DNA of 18,155 bases, counting the filler, from an uncultured virus (IMG/VR IMGVR_UViG_2061766007_000220) (lineage: Duplodnaviria; Heunggongvirae; Uroviricota; Caudoviricetes). It is 2 parts of one record of this genome, joined end to end, with 100 filler letters (N's around TTAATTAATTAA, not from the genome) between each part and the next. Parts side by side here need not be neighbours in the genome. Positions count along the whole stretch, not along the records: positions 1 to 17,363 come from IMGVR_UViG_2061766007_000220; positions 17,464 to 18,155 come from IMGVR_UViG_2061766007_000220. One strand, written 5' to 3'. Positions 401 through 18,155 of the stretch are shown piece after piece. The notes below the pieces were generated by a model that worked only from the letters and a program-made list of their open reading frames with translations, did not search any database and was not told the origin of the DNA. The position numbers and the translations under genes were made by a program. The first letter of the stretch is position 1. Every line of letters starts with the position of its first letter.

Positions 401-413
401 ATTGATCCTCCTT

Positions 414-3376: not shown

Positions 3377-3465
3377 GACACAAGTGTAGCCAACCTTTTT
3401 CGGCATTGTCATTCTCTGTGAGGTGTCCTGCTCTCTCTCACATCATCTGGGAGCTACCCAGCGAC
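3377..3465 (-). ncRNA. Structured RNA directly 3' of tRNA-like unit B, possibly the 5' part of a skipping-rope motif
   Basis: GTCG-CTGGG tagct CCCAG-ATGAT-GTGAG...CTCAC-AGAGAA-TGAC forms a three-way junction. The variant at 17464-17490 has a compensatory hairpin, TCGGG tcata CCCGA-ATGATGTGAG. The family name is from memory and unverified. Confidence 0.55.
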
Positions 3466-3570
3466 TATCTCGGGTAAGGATTTGCACCTTACATGACTCC
3501 GTACCGTCAACTGTACTTGCCTTGGTGTTGGCATACAACCTAGCGTTTACCATTTTCCGCCACCGAGATA
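3466..3570 (-). ncRNA. tRNA-like unit B, allele 1 (50-nt insert)
   Basis: TATCTCGG-TG-GCG GAAAATGGTAAA CGC-[50 nt]-GTAAGG TGCAAAT CCTTAC-CCGAGATA. No canonical anticodon arm and no encoded CCA. Confidence 0.8.
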
Positions 3571-3622: not shown

Positions 3623-3782
3623 TATCTCAGGGTGAGGACTTGAACCTCACATGATGGTTTCCCTTGTTGTCGTATCGGTTTATACCCCGACATTGTTGGC
3701 TCAACTTTTTGTCTACATACCATCAAGACTCTGTTATTACTTCAACAAGTTTGTATGCGTCTACATTCCGCCACCCGAGATA
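3623..3782 (-). ncRNA. tRNA-like unit A, allele 1 (106-nt insert)
   Basis: TATCTCGGG-TG-GCG GAATGTAGA CGC-[106 nt]-GTGAGG TTCAAGT CCTCAC-CCTGAGATA. Confidence 0.8.
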
Positions 3783-3812
3783 CAATCGACATTAAATCGA
3801 CTTGTTGTATGT

Positions 3813-3841
3813 AGTATATTACGTTTTTCTAAATATGTCAA
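3813..3841 (-). promoter_or_regulatory. Sigma-A type promoter driving the tRNA-like locus
   Basis: TTGACA (3841-3836), 17-nt spacer, TATACT (3818-3813); identical copy at 18109-18137. Confidence 0.85.
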
Positions 3842-3850
3842 GCGTAAATC

Positions 3851-4625: not shown

Positions 4626-5774
4626 TTCTTTTCCTCACAAGAACCGCTATTTGATCGTGCATACAGTTTAGTGTCGGACATAGTTTGTGAAGTTTCAACT
4701 GTTGAAGCTGCCCGTTTCCGATGCACCATGACGTACTGTTGCCCCCCCCNNNNNNNNNNACTACAACGCCCGTTCCGTGAAACCTTTTGAGGTATTCGGA
4801 TTAGCAGAAAACATTACCGGTTTAGGATTTGACGTACCGCACGATAATGTTCCTTGCTATGGATATTATCTCAAATGGGATGATAGAAGAATCCTATATC
4901 TGACAGACTTGGAGTATTGCCCTATCGACTTGTCCAAAATCACACCTACTGACGTGATAGTAGAATGTAACTATTGCGAGNNNNNNNNNNCTGACATTAT
5001 GTGTCGGCTTTGAACATCGCCAGGATTTAAGCAGGCCATACTATCGCTCTCCTTTTACCTGTTTCACTGTCGTTTTCGGAACAAAGAGTGTTTGATCTTG
5101 GCTAATCCCAAGTGTCGCCGAAAGGTTTTCTTGTATCAAAGCCCCTTTTCCGGCTTTCTTGCCTTTACTATCCACTTCACACCCCCCCGAACTTTTAAGG
5201 TGTAAACTATCGCCTTTTCTGTAGTATCAGTTTGTTCTGAACCACTTGCTCTTGCTGACACCATTTGTGATCTGTCGCACATAGCGCTCCTATCTTATCT
5301 TGGTAAATCAACCACTGACTTTCTGCAACATACGGCCGACCCCCCCCGTGCCACTAAAGCGGGTTCTTCGTTTTCAAAAACTTGGAAGTCGTATTTTGCA
5401 TTGTAGCCTTGATTCCATGCGTACCGGTCTAGTCCGTATGCTAATTTGTCGTTATCAGGGCTGTCGTTTGCTTGTTTTGCCTCTTCTTCAATACGCACGG
5501 ATACCCTTGCCCCGCTTGACCCCCGCCTATCGAAATTGCCGTGTGCTTCTCTTTCGTCAGCCAACATTCGCCATTTCCTTTCGATACTACTCCATATGCT
5601 TTTGTAAAATCAGTTTGCTCTGTCGGAGTGCAAAATGATTGGTGTATTACCGCCCCCCGTGCCATACCTTGCCGTAACACTATTTCCGACTGTTCGGCAT
5701 TCCGTGACTCGACTATCTTGCGGGTGATGGTCGTAGTATATGTATCGACATCGGGGGTCATAAGTTTTTTTGAC
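4600..5774 (-). CDS. Array of overlapping short reading frames encoding methyltransferase TRD-like modules
   Basis: Modules lie in different frames: 5610-5774, 5441-5761, 5295-5567, 5207-5340, 5041-5282 (shifted at G7), 4991-5039 (cut by gap) and 4600-4749. Each complete module has a TL-like motif. Positions 4760-4980 are an unrelated misplaced contig. Confidence 0.7.
4760..4980 (+). other. Misplaced inverted contig: middle part of the MBL hydrolase gene
   Basis: Reverse complement nearly identical to 9946-10079 (NVPCYGYYLKWDDRRILYLTDLEYCP), flanked by N gaps. Confidence 0.9.
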
Positions 5775-6585
5775 TTACTCCGTCAGCAGCTTCTGTAACT
5801 CCGCTTCTGATATATTCGCTTGCGCTAACAATGCGTTCTTCAAGACTTCGGGAAGCGTCTTGCCACGTTTCTCGGATCGCCTTAAAATTCCAAGGCAAGC
5901 CTTTGCGCTCAAAAAGTATTTCTGTGGCACTGTTTCCTGTAAAATCTGCCACAAGAAAGACTCTTCTACGTCTCTGTGGCACTCCTTCGTTAGCTGCGTT
6001 TCGGACACACCATGCGATGCTCCATCCGTTACCGTCCAAACATCCGGCATTTGTCCACTTTCCGTTTTTAGGCGAAGGTACATGAACTTCGGGGTCGATG
6101 ACCCTTGCGATTTCTTCAAGGACGCACCTAAAATCTTCTCCCTTGGGGTTTCCTGATGACAATGCTCCGCAGACATTTTCCCAACACCAGATGTAAGGCC
6201 TGACGTATTGAATAGGCTTATCTGATTGTCGCATTCGTAATTGTTCAAATTCATGTTCGCGCATCTCCTTTGTGATTCTAATTACTTCATGGAAAAGGCT
6301 CGATCTCGTATCAGAACCTTGTTCCATTCCCTTGCGCTTTCCGGCAACGGAAATATCCTGACATGGACTCGAATTAGTCATTATGTCGCAAGGCTCTATG
6401 TCGTAACCGCTTACCTTTGTTATGTCGCCAAGCTGCTTGCATTCAGGAAAACGCTTTGCTTCAAGCCGAACTGGAAACGGCTCTATCTCGCTCTCCCATA
6501 TCGGTGTTGCTCCGCACAACTTGGCGGCTAATTCCCATGTGCCTGACCCCGAAAAGAAATTTCCCAGTGTCACTCTCTCACTCAT
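5758..6585 (-). CDS. C5 cytosine methyltransferase catalytic N-terminal polypeptide (motifs I-VIII)
   Basis: FSGSG (I), LGDI (III), SPCQDIS (IV, catalytic Cys), WENV (VI), PQRRRRVF (VIII); RBS AGGAG. Confidence 0.95.
   Translation of the reverse strand: MSERVTLGNFFSGSGTWELAAKLCGATPIWESEIEPFPVRLEAKRFPECKQLGDITKVSGYDIEPCDIMTNSSPCQDISVAGKRKGMEQGSDTRSSLFHEVIRITKEMREHEFEQLRMRQSDKPIQYVRPYIWCWENVCGALSSGNPKGEDFRCVLEEIARVIDPEVHVPSPKNGKWTNAGCLDGNGWSIAWCVRNAANEGVPQRRRRVFLVADFTGNSATEILFERKGLPWNFKAIRETWQDASRSLEERIVSASEYIRSGVTEAADGVSQKNL
5775..6254 (-). CDS. Alternative-frame methyltransferase subunit nested in the catalytic gene (M.EcoHK31I beta-like)
   Basis: 159-aa ORF in the +1 frame ending LWQILQETVPQKYFLSAKACLGILRRSEKRGKTLPEVLKNAL, the segment expected after motif VIII. 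AAGGAG lies upstream of the ATG. Confidence 0.75.
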   Translation of the reverse strand: MNLNNYECDNQISLFNTSGLTSGVGKMSAEHCHQETPREKILGASLKKSQGSSTPKFMYLRLKTESGQMPDVWTVTDGASHGVSETQLTKECHRDVEESFLWQILQETVPQKYFLSAKACLGILRRSEKRGKTLPEVLKNALLAQANISEAELQKLLTE

Positions 6586-6602
6586 GCGTTTCTCCTAATA
6601 CC

Positions 6603-6905
6603 TTATAATTTTGTCACTGTGTACTCCCATTTCTTACCCTCGTACAGATAAGCATGAGTAAGTTCGTTACCGTACTCTGATTCATAGCGTTCAAACTCCG
6701 GTATTGTGATATTGAAACCGCCATGAATGTTTGAATACTTTAAGACAAACCACATTCCAAGACCTCTGTTATCGGGTTTCCACAGCCCATCTTCATTGAA
6801 GCTACCACCCCTCATGCAAAAATCTCGAAGTTTCGGGTCTGACACAATGTCTATCTGTGCGTATCTTTCGGTGTCGTAACCGATTCCGAACCCGCAAAAT
6901 ATGGG
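6603..6905 (-). pseudogene. C-terminal fragment of a PAPS-reductase-family protein
   Basis: Begins IFCGFG (remnant of the GCxxC motif) and continues PKLRDFCMRGG...GLGMWFVL; no ATG or RBS. Confidence 0.6.
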
Positions 6906-6923
6906 GTATATCAACTTGAGTGT

Positions 6924-6990
6924 GTTTAGAGGAAAATCCTAAAGGCACTTTAGTATAGTAGAGTGCTGTGTTTAGGACTTTCCAATAAAC
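6924..6990. repeat. Long imperfect inverted repeat (hairpin)
   Basis: GTTTA..GGAAAATCCTAAA.GCACTTTA-gtatag-TAGAGTGC....TTTAGGACTTTCC..TAAAC. Confidence 0.8.
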
Positions 6991-6995
6991 GATAT

Positions 6996-7943
6996 TTAGC
7001 TTGCTTTTGTAGCTTTGTATTCCTCAAAGGTTGCACAGCTCCAAAAGATAAATCTGTTGTTTACCCAACGTTGTAACTTCCTAAGTTCATGACCTTTAGG
7101 AAGATGTTCCTTGTCATAAAGCATTACATAAGGTGCATAGCCATTGTCTCTAAGCCACCCTATGCGGTATAAATCCTGTTCAAGTACCTCACGTTCATGA
7201 TCTCCGCATAGTACATAAACTTGTAGATTATGAGGATGGATTTTGCTTGACTTCCTAAACTCTAAGAATCTTGGCTGAACAAGGTCTTTGTCCTCATATC
7301 TATCCCAGGCAAAGTGGATAGAATCAATCTTGATCTGAGATAGCATATCTGCTTTTTCAGCAGTCATCATTCTTATGTCAAGACCTTGATTGAAGTCTAC
7401 ACGAGCTTTACTATCAATGAGCTGTTGGAGTAAATCTTTCCAATCTGGACAAGCAAGAATGTTAGGATCGCAAAGTACAATGTGCTTTTGTCCATTCCAA
7501 AACTCAGATAAATCTGCAACCTTATGTGAGCATTGACCTTCTTTTGGTGCTACATGGCAGAAGCTACAACCTCTTGGACACCCACGAGTAAGGAAACCAT
7601 AAGCGGTATCACCACACTCAGGATAAATACTGTAATCAGGGTATATATGTTCAATTTCATCAGATAAGGGAACGTCTTTAGACTTATCGTAGACTTCCTT
7701 ACCATTAACAAGTGAAATGGCATATCCTGTACCACCTTTAACGATTTTGTCTGCATCAATGAAATACTCATAGTCTGGTGTGAAACTAAACACCTTGCTC
7801 ATGTAGACAATATCCATGTGACCACTAAACATAGGCTGATACCATTCAACGGAATCGCCTTTAGCCTTGTGGTATGCGGAAAGTTTCATTAAAGGGAGAT
7901 TAGGATAGTTGTGACCATCCACATCAATTAGACCTATTCTCAT
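6996..7943 (-). CDS. Radical SAM protein, phage type (315 aa)
   Basis: CxxxCxxC motif in TRGCPRGCSFC. The likely start is MRIGLIDVDGHNYPNLPLMKLSAYHK at 7943, not 8024. Confidence 0.92.
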   Translation of the reverse strand: MRIGLIDVDGHNYPNLPLMKLSAYHKAKGDSVEWYQPMFSGHMDIVYMSKVFSFTPDYEYFIDADKIVKGGTGYAISLVNGKEVYDKSKDVPLSDEIEHIYPDYSIYPECGDTAYGFLTRGCPRGCSFCHVAPKEGQCSHKVADLSEFWNGQKHIVLCDPNILACPDWKDLLQQLIDSKARVDFNQGLDIRMMTAEKADMLSQIKIDSIHFAWDRYEDKDLVQPRFLEFRKSSKIHPHNLQVYVLCGDHEREVLEQDLYRIGWLRDNGYAPYVMLYDKEHLPKGHELRKLQRWVNNRFIFWSCATFEEYKATKAS

Positions 7944-8024
7944 GATGTTTCTCTTCCCAAAACTTAAACTTATTGGCATATCTGTTGATTCTGCCAATAC
8001 GTTGACGGATTTCAACAATATCAT

Positions 8025-8342
8025 TTATCTGCTCAGATGTATCGTTTCCCTGAACGTCATTTTAGGCTTTAAGAACGTCACATTGTCAGTCGTTTTAACC
8101 TTTGCTCTGACTTCCGGATATTCAAGCCCTGTGTCCATGAACACCGCGGGAATATCGGGATAGTTCTTTCTGACTATATCAAGTAGCACCGTACTGTCCT
8201 TGCCGCCTGAAAAGCTGACAAAAACGCCATCTTCTCCGTATTCGTTGACCCAATCTTTGATTCTTGATTCTGTCATGCGAACCTTAACGGATAACGGAGC
8301 AGCTTGCATACATTTCAGACCGGCTATTGTTCTTTCACTCAT
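8025..8342 (-). pseudogene. N-terminal fragment of a PAPS-reductase-family (PP-loop) protein
   Basis: VSFSGGKDSTVLL and VFMDTGLEYPE motifs; ends abruptly after LKPKMTFRETI. Confidence 0.8.
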
Positions 8343-9166
8343 ACGTTTCTCCTGTCAGCAATTCGATTATTTTTTTCCCCATATCTCGGTCACGGCAAAA
8401 AACAAACTTGCATCCGTATTTCAATTCCATTGTTTCGAGTGCTTTTGCCAACTTGTCACCTTTCATAGCATATGGATATTTGTAAATCGGTCTGCGATTA
8501 CCCATAGCATCTCGCCTTGTCCACGCTTTAACGATAAGACTTCTCGGATTTGTCCACATTCTCAGACTGTTAATGTCGGTAACGGCCTTGTTGAGAATAT
8601 CCTTTTTCATGCCGATCATTTCAGGGTCTGATGCAACAAGAATAAATAGCCTTGTTCGCCTTATCTGCGCCCTTACAAGTCCTCGGTGGAAGAATCCTCG
8701 GTACTTCGTATAAAGGGTCTGTAAACGGCTTATAAGCGTTTCTGAAAGCCTATTCTCGTAAACATACATCGTTATCTCGTTGTCAACGTCACGGTTTGTA
8801 TCGTCCGAAGTGATGATGTTNNNNNNNNNNTGTTATCTCGTTGTCAACGTCACGGTTTGTATCGTCCGAAGTGATGATGTTCACTAAGTTCTTGTGATGC
8901 TTACCTTCTTCCGAAACAGTCAGCAGATTTTTAACCGCTGCCGATACTGCGGATTTGCTGATGGTCTTTGCCTGAATGTCACCGATCAATTCCTGAATAT
9001 CTTTTTTAGTGTCAACTGCAACGTCCGACTTTCCGGCAAGTTGATAATCACCGCAATTAAGCGTTTCTCTTGTCCACGAAATGCCGTTTTTCAAGAACCA
9101 TTGATGCTTCGCGGTATGTTTCTTCGCTTGCTGACGTGTATCTTCAAGAAGCAGAATCCTATCCAT
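8335..9166 (-). CDS. ERCC4-domain nuclease-like protein (one gene split by a gap with a duplicated overlap)
   Basis: EDTRQQ...LNCGDY...VDTKKDIQEL at the N terminus and LETMELKYGCKFVFC at the C terminus; 8770-8820 duplicates 8831-8881. Confidence 0.75.
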
Positions 9167-9377
9167 GTCTTAATCTCCTTTTGTAATGTCCATCGTAATT
9201 ATACTCCTTTATCTCGTCCTCAACCTTGTCAAAGTCGAATTTGTCGGCTCTTTTATAAAACTTGCATTTGCCGGTTTTAGCGCAAACCATTTCTGTAAGG
9301 CAAGCACACAAATCGTCACGATGATAAAAAGCGCACGAACACCGAGGAAAATGGTTATTTTTTCTTCGCTTTTGCAT
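9159..9377 (-). CDS. Small Cys-rich hypothetical protein
   Basis: 72-aa ORF with an RBS (GAGG), overlapping both neighbours; C-x-C...C-x-C...C...CKFYK pattern. Confidence 0.65.
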   Translation of the reverse strand: MQKRRKNNHFPRCSCAFYHRDDLCACLTEMVCAKTGKCKFYKRADKFDFDKVEDEIKEYNYDGHYKRRLRHG

Positions 9378-9699
9378 TTTCTTCTACCTCTTTGTCGTTT
9401 TGTCCTCTGGCAGTAACCTCAAATTGGTTCACGATCAACTGAGGATTGTAATGCGTTTCTCCGTTCATCGTATATTTATTCGGGGAGATTTCCCCATAAA
9501 CAGTTACTGTAGTACCTTTTTTGCAAAATCTCGCCATATGCTCTGCGGTCTTGTCAAACGCCACGAGATTGTGCCACTCTCCATCAGTAGAATGATTGCA
9601 ACGCACATACATAGACGTTTTTGCTATCGTCTGTCCTTTTTCGGTCTTTCCGATAGTAACATTTGCTCCCAGGTTTCCCGAAAGTATGCAGCAGTTCAT
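9355..9699 (-). CDS. ssb: Single-stranded DNA-binding protein
   Basis: MNCCILSGNLG...EWHNLVAFDKTAE...KKGTTVTVYGEI OB-fold pattern; RBS AAAGGAG before ATG 9699. Confidence 0.9.
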   Translation of the reverse strand: MNCCILSGNLGANVTIGKTEKGQTIAKTSMYVRCNHSTDGEWHNLVAFDKTAEHMARFCKKGTTVTVYGEISPNKYTMNGETHYNPQLIVNQFEVTARGQNDKEVEENAKAKKK

Positions 9700-9710
9700 A
9701 AATGCTCCTT

Positions 9711-10295
9711 TCAAAGTCCTATTGTTAAACCTTTCCTCGCCACATAGACATGAGCAGTTTCAGCAACAGTCGAAATCGTTTTTGTAATTTCGTCAGGGTC
9801 GCTTGTGTCAAGTCCTCGGTGACAAAGAATCACATTTTTAAGTTCAGTGCTTGCAACGTGCTTAACGAAGTCTTTGCAAGCCTTTAATCCCATATGTCCG
9901 AGAAGTTTATGCCTTATATTATCCGCTTCCATGTCAACCATATCCTCGCAATAGTTACATTCTACGATCACGTCAGTAGGTGTGATTTTGGACAGATCAA
10001 TAGGGCAATACTCCAAGTCGGTCAAATAAAGGATTCTTCTATCATCCCATTTGAGATAATATCCATAGCAAGGAACATTNNNNNNNNNNNNNTGCATCAA
10101 GAGTTTTTCGAGTGCTTGCGTGTGGTCTTTGTGAATGTGACTAATCAATACACCGCGTATCTTTGTCACGTCGAACCCCAACGCTTGCTTAATCTCTTTA
10201 ATGCTCATTCCCGCATCAAGAATCACATCTGAAATGCCATCACTTAAAATGTACGCATTTCCACTACTGCCCGTTCCGACAACCTTTAATTCCAT
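9711..10295 (-). CDS. MBL-fold metallo-hydrolase (phage nuclease type); partial variant copy at 10315-10517
   Basis: GTGSSGNAY, LDAG, ISHIHKDH (HxHxDH), TD, ECNY and GHM motifs. Confidence 0.92.
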   Translation of the reverse strand: MELKVVGTGSSGNAYILSDGISDVILDAGMSIKEIKQALGFDVTKIRGVLISHIHKDHTQALEKLLMXXXXXNVPCYGYYLKWDDRRILYLTDLEYCPIDLSKITPTDVIVECNYCEDMVDMEADNIRHKLLGHMGLKACKDFVKHVASTELKNVILCHRGLDTSDPDEITKTISTVAETAHVYVARKGLTIGL

Positions 10296-10520
10296 ATCTT
10301 ATCCNNNNNNNNNNAACATCAAGAGTTTTTCGAGTGCTTGCGTGTGGTCTTTATGTATGTGACTAATCAATACACCGCGTATCTTTGTCACGTTGAACCC
10401 CAACGCTTGCTTAATCTCTTTGATGCTCATTCCCGCATCAAGAATCACGTCTGAAATGCCATCACTTAAAATGTAAGCATTTCCGCTACTGCCCGTTCCG
10501 ACAACCTTTAATTCCATATC

Positions 10521-11339
10521 TTATCCNNNNNNNNNNNNNNNNNNNNNNNNNNNNNNNNNNNNNNNNNNNNNNNNNNNNNNNNNNNNNNNNNNNNNNNNNN
10601 NNNNNNNNNNTGTGCCGTCGTCACGAATAACCGCCTGATCGTTGTTGAAAGCGTTCTGGAACTCGATGCTCATGATTCCCCATTTGCTGATAAGTTGACG
10701 AAGCATGGTTTTCTTCGCCATTTCGTTAAAGTTCTTGCTCCAAAACGTATAGGACGTGCCTTTTGTAATGTCGCTCTTGTAGCCTTTGGAATACTGCTTT
10801 GCGTGTGCTTGCATTTCCTCAATCGTCCAGTACATTTCCTTGCGGAAGCCTGTTGTCAACTCGAAGTAGGCGTAGTAGCCGATAACCTTTGCCTTTTCGC
10901 GCTTGTTGGGGTCTGTGATCGGAGCAAATTTGTAATCCTCGTCAAAAGGATTGTAGTGAACCAACTCGCCCTCTCTAACCTCGATTACATTCATCTTGCG
11001 GTACTGACCGCTTCTCATGGCAAGTCTGATTAACCCCTTGTATCCAGCCTGAAAGACTGCTTCTGCAACGCCCTTGTTCTCGTACTTAACCATGTAATAT
11101 TCGCCAAGCTGCGGAGAAGGACTTAACTTCAAACTCTGTCCGAGCAAAGCTGCATTGACGATCGAAGCATTCGTACATTGTGCCAAGTCTTTATTGGTCT
11201 GTACGGCTGATACGATAGATGTCACGAAGCTGGTGTAGTCCTTTTCGCCTACGACCGGAAGTATATTTTCTTTGACCTTATCACTTCCGAGATAGGTGGC
11301 AATTCCGGTTTTCTGTGTCTGTGCGACTGCTGTTCCCAT
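10521..11339 (-). CDS. recT: RecT-family single-strand annealing recombinase
   Basis: LSPSPQLGEYYMV, FQAGYKGLIRLAMRSGQY and FNEMAKKTMLRQL motifs. Confidence 0.93.
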   Translation of the reverse strand: MGTAVAQTQKTGIATYLGSDKVKENILPVVGEKDYTSFVTSIVSAVQTNKDLAQCTNASIVNAALLGQSLKLSPSPQLGEYYMVKYENKGVAEAVFQAGYKGLIRLAMRSGQYRKMNVIEVREGELVHYNPFDEDYKFAPITDPNKREKAKVIGYYAYFELTTGFRKEMYWTIEEMQAHAKQYSKGYKSDITKGTSYTFWSKNFNEMAKKTMLRQLISKWGIMSIEFQNAFNNDQAVIRDDGTXXXXXXXXXXXXXXXXXXXXXXXXXXXXG

Positions 11340-11354
11340 GTTTTCTCTCCTTTC

Positions 11355-14317
11355 TTACTGTGTAAGTTCCTTGTCCTCTGAAACAACAAGACCGATCAAC
11401 TGCTTTCCGAAAGGCATCTCCAAAGCGATTCTCTTTTCACTGTCGCTTGAAAGTGATTCAAACCCATCAACAAAAAGCGGTACGCTCTGCTCAAACAAAG
11501 ACTGTAAGCCAAACGCAATATCGATCTTTGCAATAATCTCTCTGCCGGTATTAGCCGATTCACCCAACTTCTTGTCATCAATATAGGCATCGCAGACCTC
11601 TGTGTACTCTCCGTTCTTCTTGTAGTCAAAGAACTTCCATTTGACAATGCTGAAATGATTATTGACCGATTCAGTAACAAGTTCATTGGTGAACCGATTT
11701 AACTTGTCGATTTCGTCAAGCGTTTTTTCGGCATCTGCCTTTGCCTGTTCGTACTCCATCTGCTGCTTGCGTAAATCAGCGATCTTCGCATCAATCGCAC
11801 GGTTTGCATCGAATATTGCAAGTTTACCGTTCAACTCGCCACGTTCTGCATCGAGTTCCTTTAACCTTTCAACCTCGATAGCCGGAGCGGGTGCGGTATA
11901 TAAATCCGAATACTCTTTAAGTGCCTTTTCAGCATCAGCCTTAACCTTTGCAAGCGATTTCTGCAAGTCCTTCGTTTCCTTGCTTGCCTTTACGGGTTTA
12001 CTGTCGATTTCTTCGAGCTGCGTGTAATATCCGTTCTTGCTTTCTGACATGGCATTGATTTCGTCAGTAAGCTTCTTTTCCGCTTCTGTAGCATCAGATA
12101 CTGCTTTTTTGGCACGTTCGACTTCTGCGATCAATTCCTCAATCTGCCTTTGGTGTGCTTCTCTTATCTTGATCGCCTTTTCTGCGTCAAGCGGTCTGCC
12201 GCAAGTCGGACAAATGATTGCATTGTCAGCACGTTCGTTCATCTGTCGGATAGTCTCNNNNNNNNNNGCCCTTGTAAGCGATTTCTGCAAGTCCTTCGTT
12301 TCCTTACTTGCCTTTACGGGTTTACTGTCGATTTCTTCGAGCTGCGTGTAATATCCGTTCTTGCTTTCTGACATGGCATTGATTTCGTCAGTAAGTTTCT
12401 TTTCCGCTTCTGTAGCATCAGATACTGCTTTTTTGGCACGTTCGACTTCTGCGATCAATTCATCAATCTGTCTCTGGTGTGCTTCTCTTATCTTGATGGC
12501 CTTTTCTGCGTCGAGCGGTCTGCCACAAGTCGGACAAATAATCGCATTGTCAGCACGTTCGTTCATCTGTCGGATAGTCTCGGTCATGTCGGCAACGCTT
12601 GTTTGTGCCGTGGACTTTGAGATTTTAGCCTGGTTGAGTGCATTCGTCTTATCTCCGATTGAACGGTCAAGTTCTGCGATAGCATCAGCNNNNNNNNNNA
12701 TAGCATCAGACACTGCTTTTTTGGCACGTTCGACTTCTGCGATCAATTCCTCAATCTGCCTNNNNNNNNNNNNNNNNNNNNNNNNNNNNNNNNNNNNNNN
12801 NNNNNNNNNNNNNNNNNNNNNNNNNNNNNNNNNNNNNNNNNNNNNNNNNNNNNAGTCATGTCGGCAACGCTTGTTTGTGCCGTGGACTTTGAGATTTTTG
12901 CCTGGTTGAGCGCATTCGTCTTATCTCCGATTGAACGGTCAAGTTCTGCGATAGCATCAGCGACAAACTTCCGGTCATGTTCATGTGAAGCATTGTCCGA
13001 AGCAACCGACTTCTCGTACTTGTCCATGAGTTTCTTTAACTCTTCCGAAGCACTATCTGCGTTGATTTTGAGTTCTCTGAGCTGCTCTGCACGTTCTTCC
13101 TGCGCTTTCTTGTTCTCTGAAAAGATCGCGTCTCTCGCCTTGTCAACGTCATCAATCTTTTTCTTAATGTCAGATTCGCTTTCCGGAGCGTCTATNNNNN
13201 NNNNNGGTTTCGTACACCAACAATTACGAGGTAAATTCTGTCGAACTGACAGAAAGAGACTTCTTCAAGACCCTTAACGAAAAGGGAGTTGACACAGACA
13301 ATCTTTGCATCTTTTCTCACACGGACGCTTTTATCGGAATGAAAACCGATGAAAAACGCAAGATTTTATTCCGATTCACCGAAAAGGCTGACGAAAAAAC
13401 AATCATCACTAAGGCAATCAAAAAAGGAATCGACTTGCCTACGATCAAAGAAAAGATTTCTGCCTACAATCTCAATGAGATTGAATCCATGGCAAAGGCT
13501 TCTATTCGCAAAATAAGGGAAGTTTACGGCAAGGACGGAGAAATTCTCAACGCAAAGATAAACGGCTTGGATATGGGGCGTATAGACNNNNNNNNNNGTC
13601 TGCGTTGATCTTGAGTTCTCTGAGCTGCTCTGCACGTTCTTCCTGTGCTTTCTTGTTCTCNNNNNNNNNNCGCGTTAAGGATTTCTCCGTCTTTGCCGTA
13701 AACTTCCCTTATCTTGCGAATAGAAGCCTTTGCCATGGATTCAATCTCATTGAGATTGTAGGCNNNNNNNNNNNNNNNNNNNNNNNNNNNNNNNNNNNNN
13801 NNNNNNNNNNNNNNNNNNNNNNNNNNNNNNNNNNNNNCGATTTTTCATCGGCCTTTTCGGTGAACCGGAATAAAATCTTGCGTTTTTCATCGGTTTTCAT
13901 TCCGATAAAAGCGTCNNNNNNNNNNNNNNNNNNNNNNNNNNNNNNNNNNNNNNNNNNNNNNNNNNNNNNNNNNNNNNNNNNNNNNNNNNNNNNNNNNNNN
14001 NNNNNNNNNNNNNNNNNNNNNNNNNNNNNNNNNNNNNNNNNNNNNNNNNNNNNNNNNNTCACGGGCGATCCGTTTATCTCGATTTTAGCAGTAACTGTAG
14101 GCGTGTATTCGCCCTCTCCGATAGGAAACACTGCGGGATTAGCTGTAAGGTTTGCATCTTTTCCGCAGATAAGCCATAACCAGGCTGTAAGGATTGTTGT
14201 CTTTCCGACCCCATTCTTGCCCTTAACCTTTGATAGACCTTCCGAAAAGTCGAGTTCCTTTTCTCGAATCCCTTTGAAGTTTTGCAGCTTTAAGTTCTTT
14301 AAAATAACTTCTGTCAT
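11355..14317 (-). CDS. SbcC/Rad50-like ATPase with coiled coil and zinc hook, in duplicated fragments
   Basis: LQNFKG and Walker A GKNGVGKTT at the N terminus, CPTCG hook, and C-terminal NTG...PLFVDGFES (Walker B-like). 13205-13587 is an inverted contig of the same gene. Confidence 0.88.
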
Positions 14318-14621
14318 ATTTACCCCCTTTGGTTAGTATTTTCGGATATTCCATAACAAAATCGTACAGATTTGTTATATCCCATCCAAATTCAAATTCT
14401 TCTCTTAAAAGCTGGTGTGCTAACCGCCTTACTGTTTTCCAACGCTTCGCAAATTCTATGCGCTCTGCTTTTACGCCCTCTAAACATTCCCAAGAACACA
14501 TGTACATGGCAGTTCCGTGAGTTTCGGTGCGATCGATGTATGCTTTGAAAGGCCATTCTTTAGCCGAGCATTCTCGGTAAAAGCGTTTGCCGCAACAAGC
14601 GCAATAACTCGCGGTCAACAT
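14223..14621 (-). CDS. Hypothetical protein with possible Zn-binding CxxCGK...CSWEC motif
   Basis: 132-aa ORF in operon orientation; its 3' end overlaps the ATPase start by about 95 nt. Confidence 0.6.
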   Translation of the reverse strand: MLTASYCACCGKRFYRECSAKEWPFKAYIDRTETHGTAMYMCSWECLEGVKAERIEFAKRWKTVRRLAHQLLREEFEFGWDITNLYDFVMEYPKILTKGGKYDRSYFKELKAAKLQRDSRKGTRLFGRSIKG

Positions 14622-14761
14622 AACCCCTGTAAATGGTCATAGACTTTTTGCCGGTCCGAAGTTGTGACAAAATAACTTTCCCATCTGTCAGTAGGAATGT
14701 TGAGAAGTCTGCACCAAAGTAGAATCTTCTCTACGGAAAATCCGCATTTTCCTTGTAACGT
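14615..14761 (-). CDS. C-terminal fragment of a Cro/XRE (DUF739-like) HTH protein
   Basis: LQGKCGFSVEKILLWCRLLNIP...YF resembles the C-terminal half of phage HTH proteins; the 5' part is in the gap. Confidence 0.45.
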   Translation of the reverse strand, partial: TLQGKCGFSVEKILLWCRLLNIPTDRWESYFVTTSDRQKVYDHLQGLC

Positions 14762-15587
14762 NNNNNNNNNNNNNNNNNNNNNNNNNNNNNNNNNNNNNNN
14801 NNNNNNNNNNNNNNNNNNNNNNNNNNNNNNNNNNNNNNNNNNNNNNNNNNNNNNNNNNNNNNNNNNNNNNNNNNNNNNNNNNNNNNNNNNNNNNNNNNNN
14901 NNNNNNNNNNNNNNNNNNNNNNNNNNNNNNNNNNNNNNNNNNNNNNNNNNNNNNNNNNNNNNNNNNNNNNNNNNNNNNNNNNNNNNNNNNNNNNNNNNNN
15001 NNNNNNNNNNNNNNNNNNNNNNNNNNNNNNNNNNNNNNNNNNNNNNNNNNNNNNNNNNNNNNNNNNNNNNNNNNNNNNNNNNNNNNNNNNNNNNNNNNNN
15101 NNNNNNNNNNNNNNNNNNNNNNNNNNNNNNNNNNNNNNNNNNNNNNNNNNNNNNNNNNNNNNNNNNNNNNNNNNNNNNNNNNNNNNNNNNNNNNNNNNNN
15201 NNNNNNNNNNNNNNNNNNNNNNNNNNNNNNNNNNNNNNNNNNNNNNNNNNNNNNNNNNNNNNNNNNNNNNNNNNNNNNNNNNNNNNNNNNNNNNNNNNNN
15301 NNNNNNNNNNNNNNNNNNNNNNNNNNNNNNNNNNNNNNNNNNNNNNNNNNNNNNNNNNNNNNNNNNNNNNNNNNNNNNNNNNNNNNNNNNNNNNNNNNNN
15401 NNNNNNNNNNNNNNNNNNNNNNNNNNNNNNNNNNNNNNNNNNNNNNNNNNNNNNNNNNNNNNNNNNNNNNNNNNNNNNNNNNNNNNNNNNNNNNNNNNNN
15501 NNNNNNNNNNNNNNNNNNNNNNNNNNNNNNNNNNNNNNGTAACACGCTTCTGCTGCTATTAACATAAATTCATTCATACGTTCTCCT

Positions 15588-15619
15588 AAAAAATTGGCGC
15601 ACCCAATTAAGAGTGCGCC
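15588..15619 (-). terminator. Rho-independent terminator
   Basis: GGCGCACTC-ttaatt-GGGTGCGCC-AATTTTTT just after the stop at 15626. Confidence 0.7.
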
Positions 15620-15625
15620 TTATAA

Positions 15626-15943
15626 TCATCTGCCCCTGTAGGATTCCATGCTTTCGCCATCATCATATGAACCGCGTCTTTCCGAAGAATAGCGACCCAT
15701 ACTATCACGCCTAGCACCTCTCCCGCGTCCTCTGGCATACGAATCATAGCCATCGTGGTAATAGGGCATCGGATAATGCTCCGAGTAACCCGCATCTTCC
15801 ATAGCTTCAACTGTTAAAATGCTTTTAAGCGCATGAGCAAGTTTGTCAACTTGTTCAAGGCTCTGCATATTTAACTCGCCTTTGCTCTGGATATGTTCAA
15901 GTTCCTCACAAAGCATCTCTTTAAGTTCCTTGTATTTATCCAT
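15626..15943 (-). CDS. Uncharacterised phage protein with helical N terminus and Arg/Gly/Tyr/Ser-rich tail (105 aa)
   Basis: MDKYKELKEMLCEELE...SYARGRGRGARRDSMGRYSS; RBS AAAGGAG. Confidence 0.85.
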   Translation of the reverse strand: MDKYKELKEMLCEELEHIQSKGELNMQSLEQVDKLAHALKSILTVEAMEDAGYSEHYPMPYYHDGYDSYARGRGRGARRDSMGRYSSERRGSYDDGESMESYRGR

Positions 15944-15956
15944 GGTCTTATCTCCT

Positions 15957-16418
15957 TTACGAAATCCTTGTAATAACAAGGTTTGAGTTGAGTGCGCTGA
16001 TAACGGGCGTAGGTGTTACAGTAGGATCGTCTGTACCGGGTACATAAGCGACCGAAAGCGAGAAGCAACAACCTTTGGGAACACGGATAATTGCCGTAGA
16101 TGTTACGTTTCCGTATTCGTCAGGCGCGGTTGCCGTAGGTGTAATAATTGCTCTGCTTGACGGCCTGCTTTCGCCATTAACGACAATAGCGACCGCAATA
16201 GGTGTAACCGCTCCACCCTCTGCAATTCCAATGTTTCCGTTATATGTTACCTGATATGTTGCGTAACATTGACCGTTCGTGATTCCACGAAGAATAAAAA
16301 TTCCTGTTTCGTTTTCATGGTAAATATAGGATTTACCACAAGGAATAGATGCCGTGAAAATGATAGGCGCATTTACACTGACATTCTGCGCTGATACGGC
16401 AAGATATTCAGCAGCCAT
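15957..16418 (-). CDS. Uncharacterised beta-strand-rich protein, possibly BclA-C/C1q-like
   Basis: MAAEYLAVSAQNV...GIFILRG...YQVTYNGNI...NSNLVITRIS; RBS GAGGTG. Confidence 0.8.
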   Translation of the reverse strand: MAAEYLAVSAQNVSVNAPIIFTASIPCGKSYIYHENETGIFILRGITNGQCYATYQVTYNGNIGIAEGGAVTPIAVAIVVNGESRPSSRAIITPTATAPDEYGNVTSTAIIRVPKGCCFSLSVAYVPGTDDPTVTPTPVISALNSNLVITRIS

Positions 16419-16425
16419 ACGCACC

Positions 16426-17298
16426 TCACATTCCGCAACCGCAGCCGTACTGATTCTGATTGCAAGTGAAGATCGGAGTGCGACCGTAAACAGGCGTTGT
16501 GGGAACAGGGCAGTTGCTCAATCTGTTGTAAAGAGCATCAACCTCTGCTTCCTGACCCTGACGAAGAGTAGCAGTCTGCTCAATCTGCGAAGCCTGATTC
16601 TTTGCAAAAGTGAGTTCCTGACGAAGCTGCGCGATCGTATCGTTCTTTGCATCGATTTCAAGAGCGCAAAGTTTGTCAAGAATAGCCTGTGTACCTCTTG
16701 TCTGTGCATCGATAATATCTCTGGTGTTGTTTGCATCAGCAAATCTTGTAGCGTTGCCCTCGTTCTGAACGATGTTCTGTGTCTGACAAGTTGCTAATTG
16801 CTGGTTGCAACAGCAGCTTGCTAACTGTGACTGAATAGCGTTCATAGCCTGAGCCGAGGCAGTCTGTGCATTGTAAGACCTTTCAAGAGCAGCGATCTGA
16901 TCTGCATACATCTGCTGTGCAAGTGCGTTCTGTGCGTTTGTAACAGAAGCTGTTACGCCAGCAAATCCACCGCAAAGCTGAGTAGAGATACCGGATATTC
17001 CGTCTCTGATAGATGTTACTCCATCATTCAGCATAGCGAACTGGAAGCCGTTGTTGGTGTTGTTGTTGATTCCGCTCTGTCCGTTAAGAAGCCAAGGAAA
17101 ATCATAGCCGAGTGCCATGTTTCCTGCGCCACCAAAGCCATTTCCGAAGCCGTTGTTCCAACCGCCCGCAAACAGAATCAAAAGCACAATCCACCATCCG
17201 TCAGCTCCGAACATATTGCCGAAGCCGCCATTACCGCCACCGTACATAGGCGATACAGGCATTACCATGTTGCCGTTTGAGTTACTGTCAAGTGCCAT
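16426..17298 (-). CDS. Uncharacterised protein: Gly-rich hydrophobic N terminus, long coiled coil, Cys clusters
   Basis: GGFG...WWIVLLILFAGGW, QLASCCC and C-terminal GCGCGM; RBS AAAGGAG. Confidence 0.9.
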   Translation of the reverse strand: MALDSNSNGNMVMPVSPMYGGGNGGFGNMFGADGWWIVLLILFAGGWNNGFGNGFGGAGNMALGYDFPWLLNGQSGINNNTNNGFQFAMLNDGVTSIRDGISGISTQLCGGFAGVTASVTNAQNALAQQMYADQIAALERSYNAQTASAQAMNAIQSQLASCCCNQQLATCQTQNIVQNEGNATRFADANNTRDIIDAQTRGTQAILDKLCALEIDAKNDTIAQLRQELTFAKNQASQIEQTATLRQGQEAEVDALYNRLSNCPVPTTPVYGRTPIFTCNQNQYGCGCGM

Positions 17299-17493
17299 AG
17301 TTTTTTCTCCTTTTTATTTGAGGTTAGCGACTATTCACGCGTTAAATAGCCGGTATAGTAAGGNNNNNNNNNNNNNNNNNNNNNNNNNNNNNNNNNNNNN
17401 NNNNNNNTTAATTAATTAANNNNNNNNNNNNNNNNNNNNNNNNNNNNNNNNNNNNNNNNNNNNGCTCACATCATTCGGGTATGACCCGACCTC

Positions 17494-17629
17494 TACCTCG
17501 GGTGAGGATTTGCACCTCACATGGCAACATAGCGAACACCTTTGGTTATCTCTCAATTCGAGTCCGTCTATTAAACGGCTGTTAGTTGCCTTACGTTTCA
17601 AGCGTTTACCATTTTCCGCCACCGAGATA
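17494..17629 (-). ncRNA. tRNA-like unit B, allele 2 (81-nt insert)
   Basis: TATCTCGG-TG-GCG GAAAATGGTAAA CGC-[81 nt]-GTGAGG TGCAAAT CCTCAC-CCGAGGTA; same 5' flank as 3466-3591. Confidence 0.8.
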
Positions 17630-17956
17630 CTCTTTCTCAATCAACTTCTGNNNNNNNNNNAACTCAACTAAGGATTCTGTTTTCACTTACTTTGTTTCCC
17701 CTTCTCCACTGATCTCATCCAATACGCTTCCGATGTAGTGCGAGATAATCTTCCTTGCATCGTCAAGGTCTATCTTTCCGTTGACTGCTTTGGCTGATAA
17801 ATCGCCNNNNNNNNNNTCCTTTCCACTAAGCCACTTATCTTAGTCTTGTGCGCTAATTTCAGGGACTGACTATCTGACCGTTACAGACATTTATCCAATG
17901 CGGACTTCTTTGATGGAGATTTGCAACTCGTCCATCAATGTGTTGTTGATTGAAAA

Positions 17957-18077
17957 AACCTTGGGTAAGGACTTGAACCTTACAGTTAGTCGTTGTCCGA
18001 TTCCAACTACTGACTATTCTTCGAGGAATCTATCGGCAATTCCCCTCGCCATGCGTCTGCCATCTGCCACCAAGGTC
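17957..18077 (-). ncRNA. tRNA-like unit A, allele 2 (69-nt insert)
   Basis: GACCTTGG-TG-GCA GATGGCAGA CGC-[69 nt]-GTAAGG TTCAAGT CCTTAC-CCAAGGTT; behind the same promoter as 3623-3782. Confidence 0.8.
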
Positions 18078-18108
18078 ACAAGCGACATTAAATCGACTTG
18101 TTGTATGT

Positions 18109-18137
18109 AGTATATTACGTTTTTCTAAATATGTCAA
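18109..18137 (-). promoter_or_regulatory. Sigma-A type promoter (variant copy)
   Basis: TTGACA-N17-TATACT, identical to 3813-3841. Confidence 0.85.
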
Positions 18138-18155
18138 GCGTAAATCTCACTTTTT

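What the first reader, a model, noticed from the sequence alone, without database searches (positions are those of the whole stretch)
17464..18155. Same locus positions carry different inserts in a co-assembled variant: hypervariable cassette
Seen in sequence: 17601-17650 is identical to 3542-3591 (leader, acceptor 5' strand and D arm), yet the insert that follows is unrelated (81 vs 50 nt). Likewise 18083-18155 is identical to the promoter and leader at 3787-3859, yet the first unit has a different acceptor stem and insert (69 vs 106 nt). Duplicated protein-coding segments elsewhere in the window differ only by scattered substitutions. Inference: the inserts are exchanged as modules, probably by recombination at the conserved D and T arms (a RecT is encoded nearby), under diversifying selection. 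This resembles a repeat-spacer system built from tRNA halves.
Basis: partly seen in the sequence, partly recalled or inferred. Interest (0 to 1): 0.8.

Follow-up and report, generated by a model that had tools for sequence, protein, structure and literature searches.

The report
Phage tRNA-shaped RNAs with swappable inserts
A rumen phage makes small RNAs that keep the top half of a leucine tRNA but carry an unrelated folded insert where the anticodon arm should be, and related phages carry different inserts at the same spot, so the insert behaves as an exchangeable module whose job is still unknown.

Summary
3542-3591 equals 17601-17650 and 3787-3859 equals 18083-18155 exactly, and the inserts are 50/81 and 106/69 nt with no similarity.

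The 50-nt length is an assembler artefact. 17 of 30 N-free pieces end in an exact 50-nt repeat, which is the k-1 overlap of a k=51 graph. The 73-nt match is cut by the window end. Scaffold order and phasing are unreliable.

The units are four minus-strand RNAs derived from tRNA-Leu, with an 8-9 bp acceptor, a Leu-type D arm and a 6-bp T stem. ARAGORN and Rfam miss them.

They belong to a large uncatalogued family: at least 116 IMG/VR loci and at least 120 stretches in genome contigs, mostly Bacillota by title. This scan had already noted the family on other DNA.

Unbroken contigs of relatives (L198, L200) and public-run contigs show further inserts behind the same promoter or trailer. Near-isogenic prophage pairs differ only by the insert block.

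Inserts are replaced, not mutated. One insert class shows compensatory pairing.

Modular exchange is supported. The repeat-spacer analogy, a RecT role and diversifying selection are not shown. Function is unknown.

The parts
18109..18137 (-). Promoter-like site of the variant scaffold (TTGACA, 17 nt, TATACT), identical to the one at 3813-3841
   Evidence: 11 of 12 consensus positions; identity shown
17957..18077 (-). U1_var, a tRNA-Leu-like unit. Acceptor 5' strand 18070-18077, D arm 18053-18069, insert 17984-18052 (69 nt), T stem-loop 17965-17983 (loop TTCAAGT), acceptor 3' strand 17957-17964, followed by a run of six T
17817..17956 (-). Trailer of U1_var, unlike the trailer of U1_main. Its last bases before the N gap (about 17817-17845) look like the 5' acceptor strand and D arm of a further unit cut by the gap
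   Evidence: read from the sequence, not followed up
17661..17806 (-). Fragment of a homologue of the 57-aa gene at 4102-4275. It is 79% identical to 4085-4221, and its last 50 nt are exact (assembler overlap). It most likely belongs to the right of 18155, so the scaffold order is wrong
   Evidence: closer to L198 (91%); gene order in L198, and the X4 contig runs on past the promoter into like sequence
17494..17629 (-). U2_var, a tRNA-Leu-like unit. Acceptor 5' strand 17622-17629, TG plus D arm 17602-17621, insert 17521-17601 (81 nt), T stem-loop 17502-17520 (loop TGCAAAT), acceptor 3' strand 17494-17501
17464..17493 (-). Trailer hairpin of U2_var, homologous to 3436-3465 and kept by compensatory changes
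   Evidence: (D17, 74% over 70 nt)
17364..17463 (.). Contig joiner (N44, TTAATTAATTAA, N44). What lies to its right is a separate scaffold
3813..3841 (-). Promoter-like site of the main scaffold (TTGACA, 17 nt, TATACT)
3623..3782 (-). U1_main, a tRNA-Leu-like unit. Acceptor 5' strand 3774-3782 (9 nt), D arm 3757-3773, insert 3651-3756 (106 nt), T stem-loop 3632-3650 (loop TTCAAGT), acceptor 3' strand 3623-3631
   Evidence: a 239-nt contig of a small-RNA library covers 3602-3759 with 2 differences
3466..3570 (-). U2_main, a tRNA-Leu-like unit. Acceptor 5' strand 3563-3570, TG plus D arm 3543-3562, insert 3493-3542 (50 nt), T stem-loop 3474-3492 (loop TGCAAAT), acceptor 3' strand 3466-3473
3377..3465 (-). 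Trailer of U2_main with two hairpins. It is 88% identical to the trailer behind the unit of L200
3542..3591 (-). 50-nt branch node shared with 17601-17650 (leader, acceptor 5' strand, D arm). It abuts a 10-N gap in both copies

Best explanation
The locus encodes tRNA-frame RNAs.

A strong sigma-70-type promoter on the minus strand drives one or two small RNAs. Each keeps the upper half of a class II leucine tRNA and carries an unrelated 50-106 nt folded insert in place of the anticodon and variable arms.

The retained frame has five parts:
- an acceptor stem lengthened to 8-9 bp;
- U8 and G9;
- a Leu-type D arm with the GG of the D loop;
- a CAU junction;
- a T stem lengthened to 6 bp, with a T-loop-like heptamer.

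They cannot decode. There is no anticodon stem-loop, and the acceptor plus T stack is 14-15 bp where a normal tRNA has 12.

The frame most likely gives folding, end-processing by the tRNA maturation enzymes, and stability (inferred). The insert is the working part and binds or mimics something still unknown (inferred).

Related phages in the same and in other cattle-gut samples carry different inserts in the same frame behind the same promoter or in front of the same trailer. These alleles arise by wholesale replacement through ordinary homologous recombination between short conserved sequences: frame halves, leaders and neighbouring tRNA-like elements. They do not arise by point mutation.

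The window shows this polymorphism as branch points of a k=51 assembly graph. That explains the exact 50-nt identity, the 10-N gaps and the unreliable order and phasing of the pieces.
For: Shown:
1. The four units are real and far beyond chance.
2. A promoter-like site matches 11 of 12 consensus positions in both scaffolds.
3. Family size. One scan of species-representative genomes gave 120 stretches before its limit, most with Bacillota titles by my reading of the 80 listed.
4. The frame is an RNA structure.
- 128 units were scored.
- Among the 87 with a TG.AAAT-type loop, 68 have a 6-bp T stem plus at least 7 of 8 acceptor pairs, and none fits the canonical 7+5 register. These 87 use 59 different acceptor strands.
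- Over all 128, mean acceptor pairing is 6.14 of 8, against 3.84 +/- 0.10 when partners are shuffled.
5. The same position carries different inserts.
- L198 is an unbroken 17.7-kb contig, patchily 84-95% identical to the window. It has the same promoter, leader, acceptor and trailer as U1_main but another insert.
- L200 has the U2 T arm, acceptor and trailer with a 90-nt insert.
6. Public-run contigs.
- In X1, two contigs (337 nt carrying U1_main; 482 nt carrying U2_main) both stop at 3816, where they overlap a shared 90-nt promoter contig by 30 nt.
- The 482-nt contig has about 261 letters between U2_main and the leader that do not fit U1_main. This figure is my inference from the contig lengths.
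- Further joints and loose ends in X1, X4 and X20 at 3446/3551, 3495/3775 and 3498 point to more alleles.
7. Replacement in near-identical backgrounds.
- L089/L147: right flank 99.7% over 600 nt.
- L081/L112: 96.8% over 727 nt upstream and 100% over 77 nt downstream.
- In both pairs the inserts cannot be aligned. The unlike stretch starts right after GACGC of the D arm and ends at the T stem.
8. Inserts are not hypermutated.
- L094/L120 keep a 100% identical insert while the left flank is 93% identical.
- The U1_main allele recurs with 2 differences in 158 nt in a run of another study.
9. Inserts are diverse but functional-looking. 116 inserts fall into 90 similarity clusters, 74 of them singletons. 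One class of 12 distinct sequences has 13 of 29 predicted pairs with compensatory double changes and occurs in different acceptor frames.

Hint only:
- A contig of a size-fractionated RNA library (X19) covers the insert, T arm and 81 nt of trailer of U1_main.
Against: - No function is shown. Nothing tested here says what the inserts bind.
- The four inserts of this window fold no better than shuffles (z -0.97 to -1.90; 6 to 35 of 200 shuffles fold as well). They have no relatives, so their structure is not supported by covariation.
- Transcription rests on one contig of one RNA library, which may hold DNA.
- Processing by RNase P and by 3' nucleases is inferred from tRNA likeness only. A 14-15 bp stack is not the normal substrate.
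- The variant scaffold comes from a clearly different lineage (gene fragment 79% identical), so within this window the comparison is between related phages, not strains.
- The conserved 5' half is an identity island between two unlike stretches, so crossover exactly at the arms is not proven.
- With strict flank criteria, only 2 of 16 flank-matched pairs show replacement. Most of the other 14 are the same phage seen twice.
- The 261-nt 'other allele' in X1 is inferred from lengths, not read.
Confidence: 0.6

Rival explanations
1. Fixed paralogues collapsed by the assembler. One phage genome carries an array of three or four units that share leaders and 5' halves. The k=51 graph could not resolve the repeats, so paralogues look like alleles.
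For: A repeated 50-mer inside one genome gives the same graph topology as an allele. Arrays of several units in one contig do exist (L197; L114 and L093). The X1 contig of 482 nt suggests that a unit-sized stretch precedes U2_main in one molecule.
Against: L198, an unbroken contig, has a single unit between the same promoter and the same downstream gene. Two X1 contigs with unlike content converge on the same promoter contig. U2_main, U2_var and L200 share one trailer, which marks one position. Near-isogenic pairs elsewhere show true replacement.
Confidence: 0.12
2. Decaying tRNA-Leu pseudogenes. The units are dead copies of phage tRNA-Leu genes whose middle parts have drifted or been hit by insertions, with no function. 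The differences between phages are neutral mosaicism.
For: No function is known. ARAGORN and Rfam do not call them. The window's inserts have no significant folding signal.
Against: The frame is kept in hundreds of loci with many compensatory acceptor and T-stem changes and a consistent non-canonical 8+6 geometry. One insert class covaries. A near-consensus promoter sits directly upstream. An allele is conserved (2 differences in 158 nt) between runs of different studies. Drift would give graded divergence, but inserts are either identical or cannot be aligned.
Confidence: 0.07
3. An adaptive repeat-spacer system. The tRNA halves act as repeats, and the inserts are captured pieces of foreign nucleic acid used as guides.
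For: Conserved halves flank highly diverse inserts: 160 non-redundant of 190 distinct. Several units can lie in series.
Against: - No insert of the window matches GenBank phages, the window itself beyond chance-level 14-17 nt runs or 1.98 Mb of fetched loci.
- 27-30-nt probes from the inserts have no exact match in IMG/VR.
- Insert lengths vary from 40 to over 100 nt.
- Insert classes are conserved, structured and shared between different frames.
- No integrase-, Cas- or reverse-transcriptase-like gene is among the 34 distinct frames scanned.
- The carrier is a phage.
Confidence: 0.03
4. Working tRNAs with introns or giant variable arms. The inserts are removed or tolerated, and the RNAs decode leucine codons.
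For: Some family members with a TTCAAAT loop have canonical 7+5 geometry (32 of 41) and A at the discriminator position (35 of 41). A few are called as tRNAs by ARAGORN (e.g. L104 as tRNA-Leu(taa)).
Against: All four units of this window have the 8-9 + 6 geometry. G or T follows the acceptor stem, and there is no 5-bp/7-nt anticodon arm. ARAGORN finds nothing even when introns of 0-200 nt are allowed. Rfam tRNA does not reach E = 1.
Confidence: 0.03

Closest known systems
Class II bacterial and phage tRNA-Leu (within Rfam RF00005)
   Same: U8-G9, a 3-bp D stem, a D loop with GG, a T loop of TTCAAGT type and an acceptor stem formed by the two ends. That the D-arm sequence GGCGGAA..GGTAGACGC is that of leucine tRNAs is my recollection, not a call.
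   Different: There is no anticodon arm. The acceptor is 8-9 bp and the T stem 6 bp. Many members have G at loop position 55. No A follows the acceptor stem in this window. RF00005 and ARAGORN do not detect them.
Uncatalogued phage 'tRNA-Leu-like scaffold RNA' family noted earlier by this scan (e1-4035489, e1-5339191)
   Same: The same frame (Leu-type D arm, 6-bp T stem, large variable insert) in phage DNA, and the same reading as a frame with a variable interior.
   Different: Here the new point is population-level: alternative inserts at one position in co-occurring and related phages, with replacement boundaries mapped. Those notes are AI leads that I did not see in full.
Engineered tRNA scaffolds for recombinant RNA (Ponchon and co-workers; PMC3753655, of which I saw only the search listing and the start of the abstract)
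   Same: An arbitrary RNA replaces the anticodon arm of a tRNA, so that the cell folds, processes and protects it. This is the best functional analogy.
   Different: That is a laboratory device using a normal 7+5 tRNA body. Here it is a natural phage gene family with its own lengthened geometry.
Phage T4 stable RNAs 'species 1 and 2' (rnaC, rnaD) and bacterial or phage YrlA (Rfam RF02553)
   Same: Small phage or bacterial RNAs with tRNA-like parts and no decoding role, often next to tRNA genes (recalled, not tested).
   Different: YrlA is circularly permuted relative to a tRNA (recalled) and gives no Rfam match here. No sequence comparison with T4 rnaC or rnaD was made.
Modular mosaicism of phage genomes at short conserved boundary sequences
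   Same: Blocks are exchanged between related phages at short stretches of identity. L198 and the window are alike only in patches of 84-95% identity.
   Different: Here the exchanged block is the interior of a small RNA gene and the boundary sequences are parts of the RNA's own frame.

Membership tests
Canonical tRNA (Rfam RF00005; ARAGORN) | Detected by the tRNA covariance model or by ARAGORN | tested here: not met
   No Rfam match at E <= 1 on the window. ARAGORN finds 0 genes and 0 when introns of 0-200 nt are allowed.
Canonical tRNA (Rfam RF00005; ARAGORN) | 7-bp acceptor plus 5-bp T stem, and a 5-bp anticodon stem with a 7-nt loop | tested here: not met
   All four units fit 8-9 + 6 bp. 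No anticodon arm was seen by eye or by ARAGORN.
Class II tRNA-Leu | A at the discriminator position, the leucine identity element (recalled from the literature) | tested here: not met
   G follows the acceptor stem in U1_main, U2_main and U2_var, and T in U1_var.
Class II tRNA-Leu | Leu-type D arm (3-bp stem, GG in the loop) and a T loop able to form the elbow | tested here: met
   TGGCGGAA..GTA[AG]ACGC or TGGCAGATGGCAGACGC, plus GGT[TG]CAA[AG]TCC, in all four units.
Phage tRNA-Leu-like frame RNA family (uncatalogued) | Leu-type D arm, CAT junction, 6-bp T stem, 8-bp acceptor, insert of 40-115 nt in place of the anticodon arm | tested here: met
   4 of 4 units. The same pattern occurs in 116 IMG/VR loci and 120 genome stretches. 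68 of 87 units fit 6 bp plus at least 7 of 8. The junction ATCAT is enriched, 31 against 8.5 expected.
CRISPR-like repeat-spacer array | Three or more regularly spaced repeats | tested here: not met
   There are two units per scaffold with unequal spacing.
CRISPR-like repeat-spacer array | Spacers derived from foreign DNA | tested here: not met
   No match in GenBank phages or in 321 fetched loci, and no exact probe match in IMG/VR. Host genomes were not searched with the inserts.
CRISPR-like repeat-spacer array | Acquisition or effector genes next to it | tested here: not met
   PHROGs on 20 frames and Pfam on 23 frames (34 distinct) give methylases, a radical SAM protein, RecT, SSB, nucleases and sigma factor pieces, and no Cas, integrase or reverse transcriptase. 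Only 34 of 103 listed frames were scanned.
tmRNA | tRNA-like domain plus tag reading frame, detected by ARAGORN or Rfam | tested here: not met
YrlA (RF02553) | Match to the covariance model | tested here: not met
   No match at E <= 1 in the window or in 10 related loci.
Group I intron in tRNA-Leu | Match to the intron model; an intron of about 200 nt or more in the anticodon loop (size recalled) | tested here: not met
   No Rfam match. The inserts are 50-106 nt.
Diversity-generating retroelement | Reverse transcriptase plus a template copy of the variable region | tested here: not met
   No second copy of any insert in the window. No reverse transcriptase in the frames scanned. Alleles are unrelated, not point-mutated.

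The most novel reading that the evidence does not exclude
Phages of Bacillota carry a natural 'tRNA scaffold' expression system. A lengthened tRNA-Leu frame is recognised by the host's tRNA maturation enzymes and presents one of hundreds of interchangeable folded RNA payloads. Each payload is a decoy or binder for a host or rival-phage factor (for instance an RNA-sensing defence protein). Payloads are shuffled between phages by recombination at the frame and kept polymorphic within populations by an arms race. That would make this an RNA counterpart of exchangeable anti-defence protein cassettes.
Probability: 0.3. Interest if true: 0.85.

Novelty: new variant of a known kind. Interest (0 to 1): 0.62.

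Why it matters
tRNA-like RNAs without a decoding role are known only as a few isolated cases. Here there is a very large family with hundreds of loci, no Rfam model and no annotation even in a RefSeq phage. In Lactobacillus phage Lb the 667-nt gap between two genes holds such a unit.

The family's interior behaves as an exchangeable module. If the inserts are working parts, they are a large unexplored library of natural RNA domains in phages. The frame itself is a natural version of a tool that RNA biochemists built by design.

There is also a practical point. Such loci break short-read assemblies at fixed k-1 overlaps and produce scaffolds in which alleles are strung in series. This should be recognised before tandem duplications or arrays are read into them.

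Tried and rejected
- No whole genome is held for this window, so the rest of the variant scaffold beyond 18155 could not be read.
- ARAGORN, with and without introns, found nothing, and Rfam at E <= 1 found nothing on the window. Rfam on 10 related loci found only ordinary or 58-nt armless tRNA matches, none on the large-insert units.
- Relatives found through the radical SAM gene (80 loci kept of 225 confirmed relatives among 228 pattern matches) were no help. Even the 95-97% identical copies L001 and L002 share only that gene with the window. Of the 80, only L033 holds a unit.
- GenBank phages gave no match for 3377-4749 or for three of the units with their surroundings. U2_main was covered only.
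- IMG/VR exact probes gave nothing for the U2 5' half and nothing for each of the four inserts. The promoter-leader probe found one contig, with the same length and the same matches to the window as L198's record, so taken as the same contig.
- Complementarity of the inserts to the window gave only 14-17 nt runs at E 0.013 to 1.3, so there is no support for self-targeting.
- Folding of the four inserts alone gave z -0.97 to -1.90, which is not distinctive.
- A k-mer search for a motif shared by 160 non-redundant inserts found only the junction (N)TCAT clearly enriched, with AACGG(T) weakly so.
- In the RNA run X19 the flanking genes 3791-4749 have no cover, and in X4 and X20 large parts of the units have none. 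Absence of cover in contigs is not evidence and is not used.
- The contig depths in X1 (42.8 for the promoter contig, 35.3 and 7.4 for the two contigs that run into it) add up neatly, but contig depth is no measure of shares, so this is only a remark.
- Four literature searches (search listings and abstract starts only) found no description of this family. This is a limited search of open-access text.
- Neighbour genes in 120 genome loci were clustered. The largest clusters are a small protein with an HNH-like motif downstream (14 loci), two regulator-like families upstream (11 loci each) and terminase-like proteins. Their names are my reading, backed only by the annotation of phage Lb. No protein is constant enough to be a dedicated partner.
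Full report
**What the window is**

The window is a phage scaffold from cattle gut. Run X1, labelled bovine gut metagenome, holds 0.86 of the sampled words of 3377-4749. Almost all genes run on the minus strand:
- C5 DNA methylases, a radical SAM protein, an ERCC4-type nuclease and SSB;
- a metallo-hydrolase, RecT at 10611-11339 and an SbcC-like ATPase;
- downstream of the finding, a winged-helix protein and sigma-70 pieces.

The scaffold is broken by 30 runs of N. At 17364-17463 an N44-TTAATTAATTAA-N44 joiner separates a second scaffold. That scaffold consists of three pieces of 187, 146 and 339 nt. No whole genome is held.

**The observation**

Both identities are exact and stop abruptly.

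Four units lie on the minus strand. Each has:
- an acceptor stem of 8-9 bp, followed by TG;
- a D arm, GGCGGAA..GTA[AG]ACGC or GGCAGATGGCAGACGC;
- an insert, then CAT or ACT;
- a 6-bp T stem with loop TTCAAGT or TGCAAAT;
- the 3' acceptor strand.

The inserts are 106, 50, 69 and 81 nt and match nothing but themselves in the window. The arm motifs are far above chance: 5 found against 0.07 expected, and 4 against 0.04. A TTGACA-17-TATACT site precedes U1 in both scaffolds.

**What the assembler contributed**

17 of 30 N-free pieces end on the right in an exact repeat of exactly 50 nt found elsewhere in the window. No left end does so. This is the k-1 overlap that a k=51 de Bruijn assembler leaves at branch nodes.

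It also explains the many tandem 'duplications' of 94-98% identity that flank 10-N gaps. Alternative strain paths were strung in series by the scaffolder.

The 50-nt identity of U2 therefore marks a real branch: one 5' half followed by two different continuations. Its length carries no meaning, and by itself it cannot tell alleles from repeats within one genome.

Piece 17661-17806 also ends in such a 50-mer (equal to 4172-4221). It is otherwise much more diverged from the main copy (79% overall) than the strain-level duplicates. It is closer to the relative L198 (91%).

In L198 the homologue of this gene lies directly upstream of the promoter. The X4 contig likewise runs on past the promoter into sequence like it. 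The piece therefore belongs to the right of 18155, and the scaffold order is wrong.

**Independent DNA**

One metagenome scan for the acceptor plus D-arm pattern gave four loci.

L198 comes from an unbroken 17.7-kb contig that matches the window in patches of 84-95%. From promoter to downstream gene it carries:
- the same promoter and leader;
- the same acceptor TATCTCGG;
- a third insert of about 90 nt and a TGAAAAT loop;
- the same 3' strand and the same trailer start as U1_main.

It then runs into the same downstream gene without any second unit.

L200 has a unit with the U2-type T arm, 3' strand and trailer (88% over 105 nt) but a 90-nt insert. Across U2_main, U2_var and L200, the T stem and the trailer hairpin are kept by compensatory changes in 3 of 11 predicted pairs. 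These three units are positional homologues with three unrelated inserts.

Contigs of public runs were laid on 3377-4749.
- In X1, a 337-nt contig with U1_main and a 482-nt contig with U2_main both end at 3816, 30 nt into a shared 90-nt promoter contig.
- From the lengths I infer that the 482-nt contig holds about 261 letters, unlike U1_main, between U2_main and the leader. That would be a further allele at the U1 position, followed by U2_main on the same molecule.
- Other joints and loose ends point to still other interiors on the same frame. These are X1 3446 to 3551, X4 3495 to 3775, and X20 behind 3498.
- A 239-nt contig of a size-fractionated RNA library from another study (X19) covers 3602-3759 with 2 differences plus 81 nt of trailer. 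This hints at expression and shows that the allele is stable.

**The family**

A similar scan of species-representative genomes returned 120 stretches before its limit. Most of the 80 listed titles are Bacillota, including Bacillus, Paenibacillus, lactobacilli, Weissella and Clostridia MAGs.

128 units were scored for geometry.
- Of the 87 with a G at the second loop position, 68 have a 6-bp T stem plus at least 7 of 8 acceptor pairs, and none fits the canonical 7+5 register. These 87 use 59 different acceptor strands.
- Of the 41 with a TTCAAAT-type loop, 32 fit the canonical 7+5 register and 35 have A after the stem. This grades into real leucine tRNAs with long arms.

The four units of this window all have the lengthened geometry.

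Rfam holds no model. No match was found on the window or on the large-insert units of 10 related loci. In RefSeq phage Lb the gap between gp25 and gp24 holds such a unit and is not annotated.

The units usually lie among phage tRNA genes or in front of the packaging genes, on the same strand as their neighbours.

**Are the inserts exchanged as modules?**

The 116 IMG/VR inserts fall into 90 similarity clusters, 74 of them singletons. Over all sets, 160 of 190 distinct inserts are non-redundant.

Two flank-matched comparisons were made.
- Both flanks aligned over at least 150 nt: 14 pairs, of which 7 have 100% identical inserts and 7 have no detectable similarity. None is intermediate.
- Stricter criteria over 236 units (both flanks at least 85% over at least 200 nt): 16 pairs, of which 14 are identical and 2 unrelated. 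Most identical pairs are the same phage seen twice.

In L089/L147 the sequence is identical through GTGCTTGTGGCGGAATAGGTAGACGC, unlike across the insert, and 99.7% identical for 600 nt from the T stem on.

In L081/L112 the upstream 727 nt are 96.8% identical and the downstream 77 nt are 100% identical. The unlike stretch covers the spacer and the insert, with the 26-nt 5' half as an island of identity between them.

The reverse also occurs. The same insert class sits in different acceptor frames (L085/L100, L087/L145, L105/L154, L143/L159).

Inserts do not mutate fast. L094/L120 have identical inserts with flanks of 93% and 99% identity.

One class of 12 distinct sequences from lactic-acid-bacteria prophages has 13 of 29 predicted pairs with compensatory double changes, inside the insert as well as in the frame.

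The inserts are therefore discrete, conserved, folded modules that are replaced wholesale. Whether the crossovers lie in the arms themselves or further out cannot be settled, because the arms are nearly invariant across the family.

**How it most likely works**

Shown:
- the frame is a conserved RNA structure;
- a strong promoter-like site sits upstream;
- the inserts are modular and diverse, and at least one class is structured;
- replacement occurs between close relatives;
- several alleles occur at one position in this lineage.

Inferred:
- the frame recruits tRNA maturation and protects the RNA, as engineered tRNA scaffolds do (PMC3753655, search listing and abstract start only);
- the insert is the active part;
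- the alleles are maintained by selection.

Not shown:
- any target;
- any role of the nearby RecT;
- diversifying selection.

**Verdict**

The observation needs three corrections:
- the 50-nt figure is an assembly constant;
- the variant scaffold is a related lineage, not a strain;
- its piece order is wrong.

The repeat-spacer analogy is not supported. This scan had already met the RNA family on other DNA. What this window adds is allelic replacement seen within one lineage and sample.

Noticed in passing
window 1-18155 (for example 10083-10304 against 10305-10526, 11945-12244 against 12269-12568, 3004-3189 against 3191-3376): Many 'tandem duplications' of 94-98% identity flank 10-N gaps. 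Three inverted pairs (4846-4980/9945-10079, 13462-13553/13672-13763, 13324-13398/13841-13915) also abut gaps. Together with the 50-nt overlaps, they are alternative strain paths strung in series or flipped by the scaffolder, not real repeats.
   Followed up: partly
window 3602-3622, continued in L198 1270-1395 (-) and L200 1680-1760 (-): A conserved trailer follows U1-type units (GCCTGGGAAGATGRCACAAGAGAACTGGG.GTTG.AATCCGTCT.GAACGGTA.AC.CAGGGGAG.CATCAAGA). It contains T-loop-like and D-arm-like stretches in reversed order. The X19 RNA contig runs 81 nt into it. It may be a further structured RNA hidden by the gap at 3592-3601.
   Followed up: no
L197 1118-1290 (+): One unit of a four-unit array carries a second insertion of about 60 nt inside the D loop (between GGCGGAATAG and GTAAACGC), in addition to the usual insert. 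The frame tolerates modules at two sites.
   Followed up: no
L321 1457-1514; L258 2745-2802; L082 1241-1298; L202 2377-2434: 58-nt 'armless' tRNA-like genes have an acceptor, D arm and T arm with only about 11 nt where the anticodon arm should be. They still match Rfam tRNA end to end at 38-47 bits and sit next to the large-insert units in Lactobacillales phages and prophages.
   Followed up: no
L200 1440-1500 (-); L321 about 1900-2000: Some inserts themselves contain a second T-arm-like hairpin (GGCGGTTCGATTCCGT; GCCGGTTCGACACCGGC).
   Followed up: no
window 17817-17845 (-): GATAAGTGGCTTAGTGGAAAGGA, just before the N gap, looks like the 5' acceptor strand and D arm of a further unit downstream of U1_var.
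   Followed up: no
window 6996-8024 (-): The radical SAM gene (phrog_9298, E 3.5e-105; no Pfam match) is 95-96% identical in DNA to copies in L001 and L002, whose flanks are unrelated to the window. 225 IMG/VR stretches encode a relative. The gene moves between phages as a cassette.
   Followed up: partly
window 1-105 (+) / frame 2-490 (-): A 15-nt tandem repeat (AGTTGTAGTCGCCCG, 5-6 copies) encodes pentapeptide repeats at the end of a DUF7666 protein (Pfam E 1.1e-29). The frame is cut by the window start.
   Followed up: no
window 9711-10517 (-): A metallo-beta-lactamase-fold protein is split by gaps and a duplicated piece. It has a weak likeness to the anti-Pycsar protein Apyc1 (26 bits, below the cut-off of 50).
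   Followed up: no
window 3851-4102 (-): An 83-aa frame between the 57-aa gene and the promoter is absent in L198, where the 57-aa gene homologue runs straight into the promoter region. By their sequence next to the promoter, the X4 contig and the variant scaffold appear to lack it too.
   Followed up: partly
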